Part shown: positions 12,374 through 16,159 of the stretch, one piece after another | How positions within the stretch are numbered: the first letter of the stretch is position 1 | How the letters are laid out: every line of letters starts with the position of its first letter | DNA from: Candidatus Hopanoidivorans cymbastelae | GTDB lineage: Bacteria; Actinomycetota; Acidimicrobiia; Acidimicrobiales; Hopanoidiivorantaceae | Direction of reading: 5' to 3' | Length of the DNA: 64,000 nucleotides | NCBI GenBank assembly: GCA_028283145.1 | Contig: JAPYNY010000066.1 | Coordinates: 2,171-66,170 of the forward strand | Made by a program: the position numbers and the translations under genes | Notes under the pieces: model-generated | What the model saw: the letters and a program-made list of their open reading frames with translations, nothing else | The model's database searches: none | Told to the model about the DNA's origin: nothing

Positions 12374-12432
12374 ACTGCAAGGCTACCAAAGCCTGCAAAT
12401 CGGTTAGCAGCAAGTGCGTTGGCCAGGTCCTT

Positions 12433-13179
12433 CTACCTGGGCTGTGTGCTCTTGCCTCCGTGCACTGTGGGTTCACGACACCACCGGTCGCGTATCACCT
12501 CTGGCCAATCCATGATCTCCTCAGGCTGGGCGAGCATCCTCACAAAAACAGCTTCATCCAAACCGATGCGTGTTGGGTCTAGATATGCTTCGTTAGCTGG
12601 CAGGAATTCTTTTTCCCGAAATTCTTCAAAAATGGCTTGAGCCGTTGCTAACTGCTCTTCTGTCAGAGATCTATGGTCTAACACCTTTAGCTCTGGAAGG
12701 CGGGAAATGGTTGTTATCGACCTTCCAATTTGCTGGCGTGAGCCATGCAGCCAGCGGATTAGCAACCCTAAAGTTGTATTGCTCCAGAGCACGACTGGAT
12801 AAACCCATTCCATTTTCTCCGTTGGAGCAGGCGGTTTTGCTTGGTTGTTGTTCTTAGGATTGTTATTTTCATAAAGTATGTAATTTGGCCAGGCTCTTCC
12901 GCCAATGCATCTTTCTTCTGTCAAACAAGCAGCCAACGGCTGTGAGCCAAAACCCAAATCAAGTGAAAAATGTAACCGTGTAGCTTTTGCCCAAATGCCA
13001 ACTGCCTTCTGATTCAGGCCCGGCCGAACTCGGCCTTCCTTATCGGGTGCTACAATCAGCTTCTTCTCGTTTTCAGCCTTGTGCGCCCACAACATCGGAA
13101 AATGCACTTTTCCAATCGGTTTAGGTGCTGCTTTGAATGAGGCATAAGGTATGCTGTCGTGGTCTCGCTCGGTGACACT
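12433..13179 (-). pseudogene. 5'-truncated gene fragment (orphan C-terminal ~248 codons); possibly the tail of a large restriction-modification-type enzyme
   Basis: The track ORF starts at GTG 13107, but the frame stays open upstream to a TAG at 13180-13182 (SVTERDHDSIPYASFKAAPKPIGK-VHFPMLWAH...). There is no plausible start or RBS, and nothing coding lies upstream for ~600 bp. The link to an RM enzyme is inference only. Confidence 0.45.
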
Positions 13180-13777
13180 CTAAAAAATCTGCGTTATCGT
13201 GCGTACTTGGTCACAGGTACGCACATGAGCGGTACTCATCTGTGAGTAACATAAACCCACATCTACCATTACAGGCCATAGAACATCTCCATCTCTACCA
13301 AGCTAACCAAAACTATAAGCCAGGGTGTTGTCGTGCCTCTGTTCAATAACTCTGGCTACTACGTTTCACTTACGGAACCTTAACTTGATGCTTTTTGTGG
13401 GTTGGTACTTATAGTATTACGTTGCCTGCTAACTGACTCCTTCACCACACCTAGCAACTCAAGGAGGTTATAGTGTCTGAATGCTTCACAGGTCCGGCGC
13501 ATCATATATCATGCCGATTTTTGCGTGGTCTCTAAATCACTGGTTAATGCTCTGCCGGGTCACCTACTTTTAGGTTTACGACTATCATATAGACAGCCAC
13601 CACCCACTTGTGATCTCCAGATTTTGATAATTCCATCATAATGATTTTTTGAGCAAAACCCCAGCTCCACATCTACTTGCACGCAGAACAAACCAACTCA
13701 ACTACCTATCAACTGATTCACAAATCAAGGCCAATACCCCATAATTTACACAGCATCTAACAAACACACTTCTATAA

Positions 13778-14638
13778 TTAGTCTTGTGCAAGCAACTCGT
13801 TAAGTTCGCAGGCAGATCTTTGAATATCATAAATACGTATTTGTTCTGCAGAATGAGTACTAAATTCTTCACGTACCGAATTGCAAATTTTTTCAGCTCT
13901 ATTTGAGCATTGCTGAATACTATATACTTCACAAATGTGACTTAATTCTAACCATAAAATTTCTATATCCGATTGATTCTCCGATTCAAGAACAATAAAT
14001 TTACTATCTGATGATATTACATTTTTGTTATCTTTTGCAGCTTCATCAATTATAAAAAAATTCATTATCTCAGCTAATTCTCGAAGTTCAAAAAATGTTT
14101 TACTTTTAATTTTTTCTGAATTGAAGTCAAAAAAGCCAAATAACCTATATACATCACGTTCAATACTTATAAAATCCAAACTGTAGTGTTCATGTATTAT
14201 ATATCTCAATTCACCAACCTCTGCTATATGAGCAGCTTTGCAAATAAACTCAACGGTAGCACGCCTTGCTGATGGATCCACTGGATGATTATGTACAACA
14301 TGACGGCAAAAACTAAGAGCAAAATCAGCACATTTTGACTGTCGACTTAATATTCTAGAAGAAACCCAACGGTTCCTATTATAGTGAGTCTCTTTACATG
14401 CTTCAATAATTGTCTCTATATAATTGATATCTTCGTCATTTAGAGTATCAATGGAAGGTTGTTCATCATTATTGCCTAAGCTTATTAAAGCAAAAAATCC
14501 CACAACAAAGCTTACGAAAAAACAAACGATGGATATAGAAATTACTACAGGGCGAAACAATTGCCTGCTTCCTAATTTTTCTTGACTAAGCCAATCCTGC
14601 TCAATCCCATATAGAGGCATTTTACTGTTTTGCTTCAT
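13778..14638 (-). CDS. AT-rich island protein A: N-in single-pass membrane protein with two Cys-rich extracytoplasmic domains (domain A + domain B), unknown family
   Basis: A 286-codon ORF in ~25-30% GC DNA is very unlikely by chance. TM segment PVVISISIVCFFVSFVVGFFALISL. Domain A (~aa 60-190) is paralogous to ORF 15128-15718 and domain B (~aa 215-286) to ORF 14651-15124, each with 4 aligned Cys. Confidence 0.7.
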   Translation of the reverse strand: MKQNSKMPLYGIEQDWLSQEKLGSRQLFRPVVISISIVCFFVSFVVGFFALISLGNNDEQPSIDTLNDEDINYIETIIEACKETHYNRNRWVSSRILSRQSKCADFALSFCRHVVHNHPVDPSARRATVEFICKAAHIAEVGELRYIIHEHYSLDFISIERDVYRLFGFFDFNSEKIKSKTFFELRELAEIMNFFIIDEAAKDNKNVISSDSKFIVLESENQSDIEILWLELSHICEVYSIQQCSNRAEKICNSVREEFSTHSAEQIRIYDIQRSACELNELLAQD

Positions 14639-14650
14639 AAGTTTAAATTA

Positions 14651-15124
14651 TCAAGAATTACTAGAGCACGCATTTATGTGTGGGGTCATATCATAGAGCA
14701 TATTATAGAAAAGCCTGGTTTGATGGGCAATCCAAATATCATAGCAAATATCATTTTCTTTAAGCTGCTCAAGCAGTTCAACATATGGAATCCATAAAGA
14801 ACAAGTTGAATCTTTAATATTTGCAATTCTCTGCATAGTTAAATGACTGATATTTTTTGTACTACCATCCCATTGACATATCTCGCCGGTCTTATGATGA
14901 CAATTTTGCTCAGAAAAGAGCTCATAGTTTTGGCAGATTGATAATAATTGCTGCCACATAATCTCTATTTCAGTTTCTCGAATATTCCAGGCTTTGGACT
15001 CAATTATGTTATTTCCTAAAGCTCGTTCATTACCCTCTATCTGATTATCAGCCTTCTGACAACCTATCAAAATTATTGATGATAGCAAAGTGATTATACA
15101 ACAAAGAAACTTAAAGGTATCCAC
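14651..15124 (-). CDS. AT-rich island protein B: predicted lipoprotein carrying domain B only, unknown family
   Basis: Signal peptide with canonical lipobox LIGC (MDTFKFLCCIITLLSSIILIGC). EIEIMWQQLLSICQNY..C..EIC aligns with DIEILWLELSHICEVY..C..KIC of protein A. There is a 12-nt gap to the next gene. Confidence 0.65.
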   Translation of the reverse strand: MDTFKFLCCIITLLSSIILIGCQKADNQIEGNERALGNNIIESKAWNIRETEIEIMWQQLLSICQNYELFSEQNCHHKTGEICQWDGSTKNISHLTMQRIANIKDSTCSLWIPYVELLEQLKENDICYDIWIAHQTRLFYNMLYDMTPHINACSSNS

Positions 15125-15127
15125 TAT

Positions 15128-15718
15128 TCAGTCCTCTAATTGAACTGCGCTATATGCATTTACAGCAATATCATCAATGCTCTTTGTTAATTGTTTGAGT
15201 TTAGTATTTATTTCGCTCGAAATATGAGTGCTATTTACTTCCAATATACCAAATAGTACCTGAATATGATTTTCAATTGACTTACGATAGTGATCGAATT
15301 CTTTACCACGGCCACCATAATATTCTCGACCATACCGTGCAGCTAGAATATACCCTAAGTGGCTTGCCTCTATAGTATGCATAGCTTCACAAAAATAATT
15401 CTCAAGAGTCAGTTGTAGTTCATTTTTTTTAAGTAAATGGATATCCGTACTATTCATTACAGGGAGGCAAAAGCTTCGTATCAAGTAAAGACAATCTGTG
15501 CTTTCATGTAGACCTCTGCTCCAGTCTCTACGGCTAAAATTAGCTGCTTCTTCACATGCAGTGACAACACTGTCAATAGAAGCAATTTCTCTTTCGCTTA
15601 ACTCATCCAAAGAAATATCATCTCTTGCAGTCAATGAAAAAACTACTACTAGGCTAGTAGATGCCAATAGCATTATTGAAACTACCGTAATTATAAAGCG
15701 AAAAAGCTGCAAAATCAT
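15128..15718 (-). CDS. AT-rich island protein C: signal-anchored protein carrying domain A only, unknown family
   Basis: N-terminal hydrophobic anchor FIITVVSIMLLASTSLVVVF. Shared pattern with protein A: L..(E/D)I..I(D/E)..(V/I).AC.E ... R.W ... C ... SFC..V ... (F)C.A.H..E...L.YI. There is a 3-nt gap to protein B. Confidence 0.65.
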   Translation of the reverse strand: MILQLFRFIITVVSIMLLASTSLVVVFSLTARDDISLDELSEREIASIDSVVTACEEAANFSRRDWSRGLHESTDCLYLIRSFCLPVMNSTDIHLLKKNELQLTLENYFCEAMHTIEASHLGYILAARYGREYYGGRGKEFDHYRKSIENHIQVLFGILEVNSTHISSEINTKLKQLTKSIDDIAVNAYSAVQLED

Positions 15719-15736
15719 AAATTGATAATGGATTTC

Positions 15737-16159
15737 TCAAACTATGATATCCTCATTGGACACACCTAGTACTACATTTGCACCCTCTCCACCATCTATT
15801 ACATCTACTCCTGCATTGCCTCTGATAGTATCATCTCCTGGTCCCCCATAGATGATGTCATCCCCACGGCCTCCCCCAATCATATCTGCTCCCTCACCAC
15901 CGTCTATAGTATCATTATCTGCTTCGCCATGCAAAATATCGGCTCCATCTTCACCTTGCAGAACATCATTTCCTTGCCCACCATAGATCCCATCAGTGCC
16001 CACACCTCCATAAAGCATATGCACACCCCCCCCCACCACGTTTCTGCTACGCAAAGAAGACGGGCAGAGCGGCACCAGTGGCACCATGTTAGGAGAATCG
16101 CCCATCATCTCGCCCAGCGTGACCCTCTTTGGCATACTGGCAATGAGATGCGCAGGCAA
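15737..16159 (-). CDS. Mini RTX (hemolysin-type Ca2+-binding nonapeptide repeat) beta-roll protein
   Basis: Nine consecutive nonapeptides fit xGGxGxDx(I/L/V): YGGVGTDGI YGGQGNDVL QGEDGADIL HGEADNDTI DGGEGADMI GGGRGDDII YGGPGDDTI RGNAGVDVI DGGEGANVV. No signal peptide, and only ~10 aa follow the repeats. The start is uncertain (TTG 16159 or several internal ATGs). Confidence 0.6.
   Translation of the reverse strand: MPAHLIASMPKRVTLGEMMGDSPNMVPLVPLCPSSLRSRNVVGGGVHMLYGGVGTDGIYGGQGNDVLQGEDGADILHGEADNDTIDGGEGADMIGGGRGDDIIYGGPGDDTIRGNAGVDVIDGGEGANVVLGVSNEDIIV
16026..16034. repeat. Homopolymeric C9/G9 tract inside the 5' part of the RTX ORF
   Basis: The plus strand reads cacaCCCCCCCCCaccacg. On the coding strand it encodes VVGGGVH, immediately before the first RTX repeat and near the point where GC content changes. 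Confidence 0.9.

What the first reader, a model, noticed from the sequence alone, without database searches (positions are those of the whole stretch)
13778..15718. Three paralogous Cys-rich envelope proteins built from two shuffled domains (A+B, B alone, A alone)
- Protein A (286 aa) is TM anchor + domain A + domain B. Protein C (196 aa) is signal anchor + domain A. Protein B (157 aa) is lipoprotein signal (LIGC) + domain B.
- Domain A pattern shared by A and C: L..(E/D)I..I(E/D)(T/S)(I/V)(I/V).AC(K/E)E...R.W...C...SFC..V...(F)C(K/E)A.H..E...L.YI.
- Domain B pattern shared by A and B: (E/D)IEI(L/M)W..L..IC..Y...C...(E/K)IC...S.C.L...ELL.Q.
- Each domain keeps four aligned Cys, which suggests two disulfides and an extracytoplasmic location.
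- A fused form alongside the two separated forms in one operon suggests proteins that assemble with each other, or a diversifying family (for example receptor/immunity-like or surface-exposed).
- The function is unknown.
Basis: seen in the sequence. Interest (0 to 1): 0.65.

Follow-up and report, generated by a model that had tools for sequence, protein, structure and literature searches.

The report
Variable cassette of RTX-partner surface proteins
Three small cysteine-rich membrane-tethered proteins, built from two undescribed domains, sit on a strain-swappable low-GC cassette in a sponge-type actinobacterium and appear to be orphaned cell-bound partners of large Ig-like/RTX surface proteins.

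Summary
Three tightly packed minus-strand genes share two domains: C (196 aa, anchor + domain A), B (157 aa, lipobox + domain B) and A (286 aa, anchor + A + B). A–C gives E=4e-17 and A–B gives E=4e-6. Each domain keeps four invariant Cys in 13 and 9 sequences respectively. No Pfam, NCBIfam, PADLOC, PHROGs or PDB match exists.

New context:
- The host is an Acidimicrobiales (Actinomycetota) bacterium of a sponge-associated family.
- The genes lie on a 3.7-kb island of about 34% GC, against a 54% backbone. The closest genome lacks it. A strain with 99.2%-identical flanks carries a non-homologous C'–B'–A' allele.
- The ORF just upstream is the 3' stump of a large Sec-exported Ig-like/RTX protein gene.
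- In seven of nine such RTX loci, domains A and B are encoded next to the RTX gene or fused behind the RTX repeats.
- Between two copies of the window allele, B carries 6 nonsynonymous and 0 synonymous changes.

Best reading: disulfide-locked helical ectodomains that bind these RTX proteins (docking or neutralising), under diversifying selection. The biochemical function is untested.

The parts
12394..16128 (-). Strain-variable island. It is absent from the closest genome and replaced by a non-homologous 2.0-kb allele in a sister strain.
   Evidence: blastn of L004 against the window gives flanks 99.2% identical, with homology ending at 16129 and 12393. The site is empty in L009. GC is 27-37% across 13700-15800, against about 54% in the backbone.
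15737..16135 (-). RTX stump: a 132-aa ORF whose residues 37-132 correspond to the last 95 aa of large Ig-like/RTX proteins. Only the 93-aa part from M40 (15737-16018) is shared with strain L097. There is no signal peptide, so it is probably a remnant.
   Evidence: Pfam HemolysinCabind 2.7e-27. End-to-end alignment to the C-termini of P0008-P0016 at 52-61% identity, E 1e-28 to 1e-36. A 12-nt indel and a 2-nt indel in the 5' part relative to L097.
16026..16034 (-). G9 homopolymer inside the stump, and the site of a 2-nt length difference between strains.
   Evidence: Sequence.
15128..15718 (-). Protein C (196 aa): N-terminal membrane anchor plus domain A.
   Evidence: The domain-A HMM places the domain at ORF residues 37-202. 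The AF2 model of residues 31-196 has pLDDT 81.8 and pTM 0.80 and is a five-helix bundle.
15131..15616 (-). Domain A of protein C (about residues 35-196), with Cys55, Cys76, Cys84 and Cys110.
   Evidence: Alignments A8 and A9 show four invariant Cys. In the model Cys1 lies in helix 1, Cys2 and Cys3 in helix 2, and Cys4 in helix 3.
14651..15124 (-). Protein B (157 aa): signal peptide with lipobox L-I-G-C, domain B, and a 45-aa tail with two more Cys.
   Evidence: The Cys22-Gln23 pair is conserved in B'. It carries 6 nonsynonymous and 0 synonymous changes relative to strain L097.
14789..14977 (-). Domain B of protein B (about residues 50-112), with Cys64, Cys75, Cys83 and Cys108. The variable patch is residues 76-101.
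   Evidence: Alignment A7 shows Trp plus four Cys invariant in 9 sequences. The substitutions are H76Y, T89I, N91T, S93N, L95I and A101T.
13778..14638 (-). Protein A (286 aa): cytoplasmic tail with the LYGIE(Q/H)DWLS motif, a TM helix (about residues 26-57), domain A, a linker and domain B.
   Evidence: The AF2 model is all-helical, with domain A at pLDDT 70-90, the linker 199-227 below pLDDT 50 (unstructured 203-221), and domain B at pLDDT about 50.
14024..14455 (-). Domain A of protein A (residues 62-205), with Cys81, Cys103, Cys111 and Cys133.
13781..13990 (-). Domain B of protein A (residues 217-286), with Cys237, Cys245, Cys253 and Cys278.
12433..13107 (-). Decaying 224-aa ORF fragment of different composition (47-49% GC). 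It belongs to the island but not to the C-B-A module.
   Evidence: No family hits. The only tblastn relatives are unannotated or hypothetical-protein stretches on two kinds of plasmid; on the Dinoroseobacter plasmid that was examined they lie between IS elements. It has a nonsense mutation in L097.

Best explanation
C, B and A are real, exported, membrane-tethered proteins. C and A are held by a TM helix and B probably by a lipid anchor. Their ectodomains are small all-alpha bundles, inferred to be locked by two disulfides each.

The two domains (A, about 145 aa, five helices; B, about 65 aa, three helices) form a module family. Its normal genomic place is directly behind the gene for a large Sec-exported Ig-like/cadherin-like + RTX surface protein. 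Sometimes the module is fused to the C-terminus of such a protein.

I read them as the cell-bound binding partners of those RTX proteins. My preferred mechanism is docking or retention: the tethered A/B bundles bind the conserved C-terminal Ig/RTX part, or the free domain A that some RTX proteins carry. This holds the protein at the surface of a cell that has no outer membrane.

The window holds an orphaned version. The RTX gene is reduced to a 3' stump, and the three partner genes ride on a low-GC cassette. That cassette is exchanged between strains by recombination in the flanks and is under diversifying selection.

**Shown:** paralogy, domain family, genomic association, fusions, cassette replacement and the excess of nonsynonymous changes.
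**Inferred:** topology, disulfides, binding, and the docking role.

My probabilities are about 0.75 for 'functionally linked partner of Ig/RTX surface proteins' and about 0.35 for the docking mechanism specifically. The single confidence value given (0.5) is a compromise between the two.
For: **Association with RTX genes**
1. HMMs were built only from window-lineage sequences and searched against 14,511 six-frame ORFs of 97 loci. They hit only the cassettes, the RTX fusions, and ORFs lying right after large RTX genes. Domain A: L090 E=2e-8, L091 1.9e-6, L095 5.4e-5. Domain B: L090 1.3e-5. L098 is an independent later confirmation.
2. Seven of nine RTX loci examined carry A/B adjacent (L090, L091, L095, L098) or fused (L003, L008, L096).

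**Two independent fused-versus-split relations**
3. RTX + domain A are fused in P0004, P0005 and P0007, and split in the window, L090, L091 and L095. Domains A + B are fused in protein A and in the L091/L095/L098 proteins, and split in C and B.

**The stump**
4. The window stump aligns to the very C-terminus of the large proteins at 52-61% identity.

**Export and tethering**
5. The large proteins start with signal peptides or lipoboxes. The host is an actinobacterium. Both partners would therefore sit outside one membrane.
6. The relatives have tethering features: lipoprotein signals plus Pro/Thr-rich spacers of over 100 aa, and a 720-aa protein with several B and A modules.

**Structure**
7. 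The domain-A model is confident (pLDDT 81.8, pTM 0.80, five helices).

**Population data**
8. The two alleles have non-homologous DNA between 99.2%-identical flanks.
9. The sister cassette differs by 1 nt between backgrounds that differ by 198 nt per 20.7 kb.
10. Flank distances do not follow the cassette allele.
11. B has 0 synonymous and 6 nonsynonymous changes, against 27 and 6 in three flank genes (Fisher p=2.8e-4).
12. C, B and A stay intact while the neighbouring 224-aa ORF acquires a stop and the stump's 5' part acquires indels.
Against: - No binding, localisation or disulfide data exist. No complex prediction could be run.
- Two RTX loci (L092, L093) show no A/B genes within the DNA available.
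- The window strain has no intact RTX gene next to the cassette. The sister allele has not even a stump. The module must therefore work with RTX proteins encoded elsewhere or on its own.
- RTX-domain-A fusions occur in the same metagenome series, on contigs with similar tetranucleotide usage (r=0.91). They are not proven to be from the same genome.
- Linkers in C, B and A are short. Unlike the L090 proteins, they would not reach through a cell wall.
- Diversifying selection and orphan arrays are at least as typical of immunity proteins as of anchors.
- The family is tiny in a single-sequence search (6 representatives among 1.84 billion). The association rests on few, partly related, loci.
Confidence: 0.5

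Rival explanations
1. Immunity or inhibitor proteins. The large Ig/RTX proteins, several of which carry an HExxHxxGxxH motif, would be secreted proteases or toxins. The tethered A/B proteins would bind and neutralise them at the producer's surface. The window would then be an orphan immunity island kept for protection against neighbours' proteins.
For: - A gene stump followed by small partner genes looks like the orphan modules of polymorphic toxin loci.
- The locus is a low-GC, strain-variable cassette with several paralogues.
- B has a localised 6:0 nonsynonymous-to-synonymous patch, as expected at an arms-race interface.
- The cassette is retained although the adjacent RTX gene is gone.
- A metzincin-like motif is seen in P0009, P0010, P0011 and P0014.
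Against: - The C-terminal tails of the RTX proteins are conserved, not polymorphic.
- Domain A is fused in cis to RTX proteins that lack the protease-like region (P0004, P0005, P0007). That is odd for an immunity factor.
- No known toxin or immunity family is detected.
- Pfam does not recognise a protease domain.
- Long Pro/Thr spacers and multi-module proteins fit display better than protection.
Confidence: 0.25
2. RTX-independent surface proteins, for example phage-exclusion or receptor-masking proteins, or host-recognition antigens of a sponge symbiont. On this view they merely share islands with RTX genes.
For: - The cassette functions, or at least persists intact, without an adjacent intact RTX gene in both alleles.
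- It shows hot-spot behaviour, diversifying selection and recent spread across strain backgrounds.
- It has low GC like many accessory islands.
Against: - The adjacency recurs in at least four divergent contigs with tight gene spacing of 3-40 nt, and there are three fusion proteins.
- There is no hit in PADLOC or PHROGs, nor in viral, phage or plasmid collections.
Confidence: 0.15
3. Extracytoplasmic folding or maturation helpers, such as chaperones or redox factors, for the RTX proteins rather than stable partners.
For: - The gene order and coupling with RTX genes are the same as for the partner reading.
- The conserved Cys could be redox-active.
Against: - The Cys spacing (C-x7-C within one helix plus one Cys in each flanking helix) suggests structural staples, not a CxxC active site.
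- A helper would not be expected to evolve by diversifying selection, or to be fused permanently to its client.
Confidence: 0.06
4. Non-functional leftovers of a decayed RTX locus.
For: The stump and the 224-aa ORF in the same island are decaying.
Against: - C, B and A keep full length, anchors and all eight core Cys in two alleles that are only 26-50% identical, and in two strains per allele.
- The sister cassette has recently spread between backgrounds.
Confidence: 0.03

Closest known systems
Cohesin-dockerin surface display (cellulosome anchoring scaffoldins of Gram-positive bacteria)
   Same: This is a functional analogy only.
- Secreted proteins carry a C-terminal Ca2+-binding module.
- Cell-tethered proteins are built from one to several repeated binding modules separated by Pro/Thr-rich linkers.
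- The genes are clustered.
   Different: - Cohesins are beta-sandwiches and dockerins are duplicated EF-hand-like loops. Here the tethered modules are disulfide-stapled helical bundles and the Ca2+ module is an RTX beta-roll.
- There is no Pfam match.
- Binding is untested.
Serralysin-type RTX metalloprotease with its adjacent inhibitor (AprA/AprI, PrtG/Inh)
   Same: An RTX-tailed protein carrying a metzincin-like motif is encoded next to a small exported partner.
   Different: By textbook knowledge:
- Serralysins are type I secretion substrates without N-terminal signal peptides, in diderm bacteria.
- Their inhibitors are about 10-kDa beta-barrels.

Here:
- The RTX proteins have Sec signals or lipoboxes.
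- The host is an actinobacterium.
- The partners are all-alpha and membrane-tethered.
- No Inh-family hit was found.
Polymorphic toxin / orphan immunity modules (CDI, Rhs)
   Same: - A 3' gene stump is followed by small partner genes.
- The locus is strain-variable and low in GC.
- Evolution is rapid.
   Different: - In those systems the C-terminal domain is the variable toxin and the immunity protein is unrelated to it.
- Here the C-terminal tail is conserved.
- The same domain A occurs both fused to the large protein and as a free tethered protein.
Disulfide-stapled helical domains (CHCH twin-Cx9C proteins such as NDUFB10; plant PMEI/invertase inhibitors)
   Same: These are small all-alpha domains held by two disulfides in an oxidising compartment.
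   Different: - The Cys pattern differs: C-x(7-21)-C-x7-C-x(21-30)-C across three helices.
- The profile hit to NDUFB10 has E=0.09.
- Foldseek to PMEI gives TM 0.37-0.42 at E>1.
- Neither match is significant.

Membership tests
Any curated protein family (Pfam-A 2025, NCBIfam r20, PADLOC 2.0, PHROGs v4) | A profile match above or near the family threshold. | tested here: not met
   A, B and C have no hits better than E=0.014, all far below the curated cut-offs. B' gives only weak sub-threshold hits.
Any solved structure | Sequence-profile or fold similarity. | tested here: not met
   - hmmsearch of the domain A and domain B profiles against PDB gives a best E of 0.049 for domain A and nothing for domain B.
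- Foldseek of the confident domain-A model gives a best E of 0.11 and TM of 0.46 or less, matching generic or de novo helical bundles.
- The viral library gives nothing.
Bacterial lipoprotein (protein B) | A signal peptide ending in a lipobox [LVI][ASTVI][GAS]C. | tested here: met
   - Residues 19-22 are L-I-G-C after a hydrophobic core.
- The Cys-Gln pair is conserved in B', although B' has N at position -1.
- Lipidation itself cannot be tested here.
Serralysin inhibitor (Inh/AprI) system | A type I secretion substrate without an N-terminal signal, adjacent ABC/MFP/OMP genes, and a beta-barrel inhibitor. | tested here: not met
   - The large RTX proteins have N-terminal signals or lipoboxes.
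- There are no secretion genes in the loci.
- The partners are predicted to be all-alpha.
- The host is Actinomycetota.
Polymorphic toxin-immunity locus | A conserved N-terminal/repeat region with a variable C-terminal toxin domain, plus an unrelated small immunity gene downstream. | tested here: not met
   - The C-terminal 95 aa are conserved at 52-61% among the large proteins.
- Domain A appears both fused and free.
- The stump and the rapid evolution resemble orphan modules, so a 'works like immunity' reading stays open.
Cohesin-dockerin | A cohesin beta-sandwich and a dockerin with duplicated Ca-binding loops. | tested here: not met
   There are no Pfam hits. The predicted structures are helical.
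CHCH (twin Cx9C/Cx3C) domains | Two CxnC motifs on the two helices of a hairpin. | tested here: not met
   There is only one C-x7-C, located on the middle helix, plus single Cys on the flanking helices. The NDUFB10 hit has E=0.09.
Domains A and B as one superfamily | Significant profile-profile similarity. | tested here: inconclusive
   - hhalign gives E=0.18 with small alignments.
- With 13 and 9 sequences it gives E=0.011 and probability 3.7%, aligning Cys2-x7-Cys3...Cys4 of both domains.
- Weak HMM cross-hits have iE 0.012-0.14.
- The pairwise shuffle test shows nothing.

The most novel reading that the evidence does not exclude
Sponge-associated and marine actinobacteria possess a previously unrecognised modular surface-docking system. 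Membrane- or lipid-tethered, disulfide-locked helical modules (domains A and B) would pair specifically with the C-terminal Ig/RTX part, or the appended domain A, of large secreted adhesin- or protease-like proteins. This would be a helical analogue of cohesin-dockerin. Strain-specific alleles would be swapped as cassettes and kept diverse by selection from phage, host or competitors.
Probability: 0.25. Interest if true: 0.8.

Novelty: categorically new. Interest (0 to 1): 0.58.

Why it matters
Large Ig-like, cadherin-like and RTX proteins are, from my own knowledge, among the most enriched gene classes in sponge and marine symbiont genomes. How single-membrane actinobacteria keep or control such proteins at their surface is, as far as I know, unknown.

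If the partner reading is right:
- Two small domain families with a simple Cys signature would mark the cell-side half of that machinery.
- A hypothesis about binding could be tested directly with short recombinant ectodomains.
- The genes could serve as a strain-level marker locus under diversifying selection in uncultured symbionts.

Even if the mechanism is wrong, the locus is a clean natural example of cassette replacement and gene-specific spread within a species that is about 99% identical.

Tried and rejected
- **Word-indexed searches.** Searches with protein A and with the domain-A profile returned only the window's own proteins.
- **Metagenome scans.** Both metagenome-contig scans (patterns from B/B' and from A/A') found nothing, not even the source contig.
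- **Genome scan with the domain-A alignment.** The single genome scan went to the VWA neighbour instead. That gave the taxonomy and the empty site.
- **Mobile-element collections.** Viral contig scans and phage and plasmid tblastn found nothing. A phage or plasmid origin is therefore unsupported.
- **MoxR-VWA link.** Rejected. Those genes are conserved in 80 relatives without the domains, and the closest genome has them with an empty site.
- **Type I secretion.** Rejected for this lineage. The RTX proteins carry N-terminal signals and the host is Actinomycetota.
- **Island boundaries.** There are no att-like repeats, integrase or tRNA at the boundaries. One 14-nt inverted pair near both ends is at chance level by my rough estimate.
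- **Promoter and terminator scans.** Counts were at shuffle level.
- **Gene conversion as a source of the B substitutions.** Only one of six residues matches B' and none matches domain B of protein A.
- **Literature.** Searches on the family, genus and run accession gave nothing relevant.
Full report
**1. The observation**

The ORF listing shows three consecutive minus-strand ORFs exactly as described:
- C, 15128-15718, 196 aa.
- B, 14651-15124, 157 aa, with a GTG start and a GAGGA motif 7 nt upstream.
- A, 13778-14638, 286 aa.

They are separated by 3 and 12 nt.

Pairwise comparisons:
- BLASTP gives A-C E=4e-17 and A-B E=4e-6. B-C shows nothing.
- Composition-preserving shuffles give z=22.7 for A-C and z=8.5 for A-B, with 0 of 2000 shuffles reaching the score.

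Each protein has one N-terminal hydrophobic segment followed by an acidic stretch. B has L-I-G-C at residues 19-22. The paralogy and the A+B / B / A architecture are therefore real.

**2. Where it sits**

The three genes lie in a trough of 27-37% GC within a 52-56% backbone.

The exact protein A occurs on a 100-kb JGI contig and on one SRA assembly. Its neighbours are obg, proB, murJ, proA, a MoxR-type AAA protein, VWA_CoxE, then the island, then an SDR and a sulfite-oxidase-like gene.

A scan of GTDB genomes with the VWA protein returned only Acidimicrobiia and related Actinomycetota MAGs:
- The best hit (86%) is a 'Candidatus Hopanoidivoransaceae' chromosome.
- That family also holds the genus Ca. 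Poriferisocius, whose name points to sponges.
- Several of the returned MAGs are labelled Ca. Poriferisocius.

In that closest genome, VWA_CoxE is followed directly by the SDR gene. The site is empty there. None of the 80 related loci contains either domain. The MoxR-VWA pair is therefore a bystander.

**3. A replaceable cassette**

Protein P0002, a 36%-identical relative of A, lies at the same site in a sister strain (L004-L007).
- blastn shows flanks 99.2% identical. Homology stops at window 16129 and 12393 (breakpoint alignment).
- Between the breakpoints, the window has 3.7 kb and the sister has 2.0 kb of unrelated DNA. The sister DNA is also 30-38% GC.
- The sister cassette has the same gene order: C' (244 aa, anchor + domain A), B' (122 aa, signal + domain B), A' (232 aa, same LYGIE(Q/H)DWLS tail, TM, domain A, but no domain B).
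- Protein identities between the alleles are only about 26-50%.

Four strain backgrounds are available. They differ from each other by about 1% in the flanks, and these distances do not group by cassette allele.

The sister cassette differs by a single nucleotide between two backgrounds that differ at 198 positions over 20.7 kb. About 21 differences would be expected in 2.2 kb. That cassette has therefore moved between backgrounds recently.

No integrase, tRNA or att-like repeats flank the island. Exchange by homologous recombination in the flanks is the simplest route (inference).

**4. Microevolution of the window allele**

L097 carries the window allele at 98.8% nucleotide identity.

C, B and A keep their lengths. 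Synonymous versus nonsynonymous codon changes:

| Gene | Synonymous | Nonsynonymous |
|---|---|---|
| C | 1 | 2 |
| A | 3 | 1 |
| B | 0 | 6 |
| VWA (flank) | 20 | 3 |
| SDR (flank) | 4 | 1 |
| MoxR (flank) | 3 | 2 |

- B against the three flank genes gives Fisher p=2.8e-4.
- The six B changes (H76Y, T89I, N91T, S93N, L95I, A101T) all fall between Cys2 and Cys4 of domain B.
- They do not copy B' or domain B of protein A. A conversion tract would also be expected to bring synonymous changes. Positive selection on one surface patch is therefore the likeliest cause (inference).

By contrast, other parts of the island are decaying:
- The 224-aa ORF (12433-13107) has a stop codon in L097.
- The 5' third of the RTX ORF has a 12-nt indel and a 2-nt indel at a G9 run.

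**5. The RTX ORF is a stump**

The ORF upstream of C (15737-16135) matches HemolysinCabind.
- Its residues 37-132 align end-to-end with the last 95 residues of large proteins P0008-P0016 (586-1357 aa), at 52-61% identity and E down to 2e-36.
- They also align to the tail of L096 gene 1 at 57% identity.
- The start codon lies in the shared flank. The first 36 residues are not conserved between strains. There is no signal peptide.

It is a 3' remnant of such a gene.

**6. The domain family and its normal context**

An exhaustive phmmer search of 1.84 billion representatives with protein A found only six proteins:
- A itself.
- C.
- P0002.
- P0003.
- Two long proteins, P0004 (777 aa) and P0005 (715 aa).

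In P0004 and P0005, domain A follows Ig-like domains and RTX repeats at the extreme C-terminus. P0007 is a third such fusion.

The unfused relatives of these large proteins have signal peptides or lipoboxes, Big_9/Cadherin_4/PKD domains and RTX repeats. Four of them carry an HExxHxxGxxH motif, seen by eye and not recognised by Pfam.

The genes directly downstream of them encode Cys-rich proteins made of the same two domains:
- **L090:** a lipoprotein + Pro/Thr spacer + A. Then a 720-aa protein with B, B, spacer, A and further Cys modules. Then a second lipoprotein + A. Then a B-B protein.
- **L091, L095 and L098:** proteins with a basic tail + TM + A + an extra Cys module + B. This is the architecture of window protein A.

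The statistical support:
- HMMs built only from window-lineage sequences detect the downstream proteins at E=2e-8 to 5e-5 among 14,511 ORFs, and detect nothing elsewhere.
- In the enlarged alignments, the four Cys are the only invariant residues of domain A (13 sequences). Trp plus four Cys are the only invariant residues of domain B (9 sequences).

Overall, seven of nine RTX loci have A/B adjacent or fused. L092 (five tandem RTX genes) and L093 do not, within the DNA held.

All these genes have lower GC (43-48%) than their flanks (54-59%).

The contig with P0005 comes from the same metagenome as the sister allele. P0007 comes from the same metagenome as L097. The housekeeping part of L008 has tetranucleotide correlation 0.91 with the window backbone. 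Within-window values are 0.96-0.98, and the same-family genome gives 0.80. The fusion proteins are therefore from the same or a very close lineage. This is not proven.

**7. Structure**

- **Protein A.** AF2 with a 6-sequence alignment is all-helical. Domain A has moderate confidence, the 199-227 linker falls below pLDDT 50 (unstructured 203-221), and domain B is a low-confidence three-helix unit.
- **Domain A of C.** With 7 sequences it gives pLDDT 81.8 and pTM 0.80, a five-helix bundle. Cys1 lies on helix 1, Cys2 and Cys3 (C-x7-C) on helix 2, and Cys4 on helix 3.
- **Disulfides.** Two disulfides stapling helix 2 to its neighbours is the natural reading.
- **Known folds.** Foldseek against PDB and BFVD gives nothing below E=0.1. 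Profile searches of PDB sequences give nothing significant.
- **Relationship of A and B.** Domain B has the same Cys topology as the first half of domain A. Profile-profile comparison is only suggestive (E=0.011, probability 3.7%).

**8. Interpretation**

Two fused-versus-split relations (RTX+A and A+B), together with conserved tight adjacency, argue that the large Ig/RTX protein, domain A and domain B act together outside the membrane.

Actinomycetota are, as a rule, monoderm and form extracytoplasmic disulfides (established knowledge, not tested here). This fits Sec-exported RTX proteins and Cys-stapled partners.

I favour a docking or retention role for these reasons:
- Tethers, long Pro/Thr spacers and multi-module proteins in the relatives.
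- Domain A appended to secreted RTX proteins that lack the protease-like part.

An immunity or inhibitor role is a serious rival for these reasons:
- A stump plus small partner genes.
- An orphan array.
- A fast-evolving patch on B.

An RTX-independent surface role, a folding-helper role and junk are less likely for the reasons given under the rivals.

In the window strain the module is orphaned. It either serves RTX proteins encoded elsewhere or has a stand-alone role.

**9. Comparison with known systems, and novelty**

No defining feature of the following is met: serralysin/Inh systems, polymorphic toxin-immunity loci, cohesin-dockerin, CHCH domains or PMEI-like inhibitors (see the membership table). 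Resemblances are functional analogies only.

Both domains are absent from Pfam-A 2025, NCBIfam r20, PADLOC and PHROGs. Literature searches found nothing.

I therefore rate it as lying outside known kinds. The caveat is that 'new' here means new protein families with a new, reproducible genomic association. It does not mean a demonstrated new mechanism.

**10. Verdict**

- The finding is real.
- Interest is moderate to high (0.58). The biology is unexplored and directly testable, but the function remains inferred and the family is so far small.

Noticed in passing
window 12433-13107 (-) and 13108-13777: A 224-aa ORF of intermediate GC (47-49%) with no family match. Its only relatives are unannotated or hypothetical-protein stretches on a Dinoroseobacter shibae plasmid, where they lie between IS elements, and on a Nitrosospira plasmid. 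It has a nonsense mutation in strain L097. The 670 bp upstream hold no ORF. It looks like a decaying passenger fragment of separate origin within the same island.
   Followed up: partly
window 16026-16034 and 16105-16116: A G9 run inside the RTX stump carries a 2-nt length difference between strains. A 12-nt indel lies nearby. This is either slippage-prone DNA or decay of a non-functional 5' region.
   Followed up: partly
L003 1260-2189 and 4941-5324: The gene for the RTX-domain-A fusion P0004 lies between a tRNA-synt_1e-like gene (CysRS/MshC type) and a duplicated copy of that gene's 3' end. It is followed by about 30% GC ORFs, including a CorA-like protein. This may be an insertion with target duplication.
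   Followed up: no
L092 1-10154; L096 1-5946; L008 1-2541: Tandem arrays of two to five paralogous Ig-like/RTX genes. They have lower GC than their flanks. In L092 there are no domain-A/B genes within reach.
   Followed up: partly
P0009, P0010, P0011, P0014 (N-terminal halves): An HExxHxxGxxH (metzincin-like) motif is visible in the N-terminal region of about 600 aa of the large RTX proteins. Pfam finds no protease domain there.
   Followed up: no
L090 10670-12832, L091 9970-11220, L095 9059-11648, L098 6701-7891: A third recurring Cys module (roughly C-x20-C-x6-C-x10-C) precedes domain B in the longer relatives. It is absent from the window proteins.
   Followed up: no
L004 vs L005, 8600-10818: The sister cassette differs by 1 nt between two strain backgrounds whose flanks differ by 198 nt over 20.7 kb. 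This indicates recent gene-specific spread. Flank distances among four strains do not follow the cassette allele.
   Followed up: yes
L093 4220-6133 and L098 4824-6689: In two loci the gene after the large RTX gene is a lipoprotein of about 620-640 aa. It is built from repeats resembling the 'ELRD...YSTDGG' Ig-like region of the RTX proteins themselves. In L098 a TM + A + B protein follows it.
   Followed up: partly
window 13778-14638, residues 9-18 of protein A: The cytoplasmic tail motif LYGIE(Q/H)DWLS is conserved between A and A' although the proteins are only 36% identical. This hints at a cytoplasmic contact of unknown kind.
   Followed up: no
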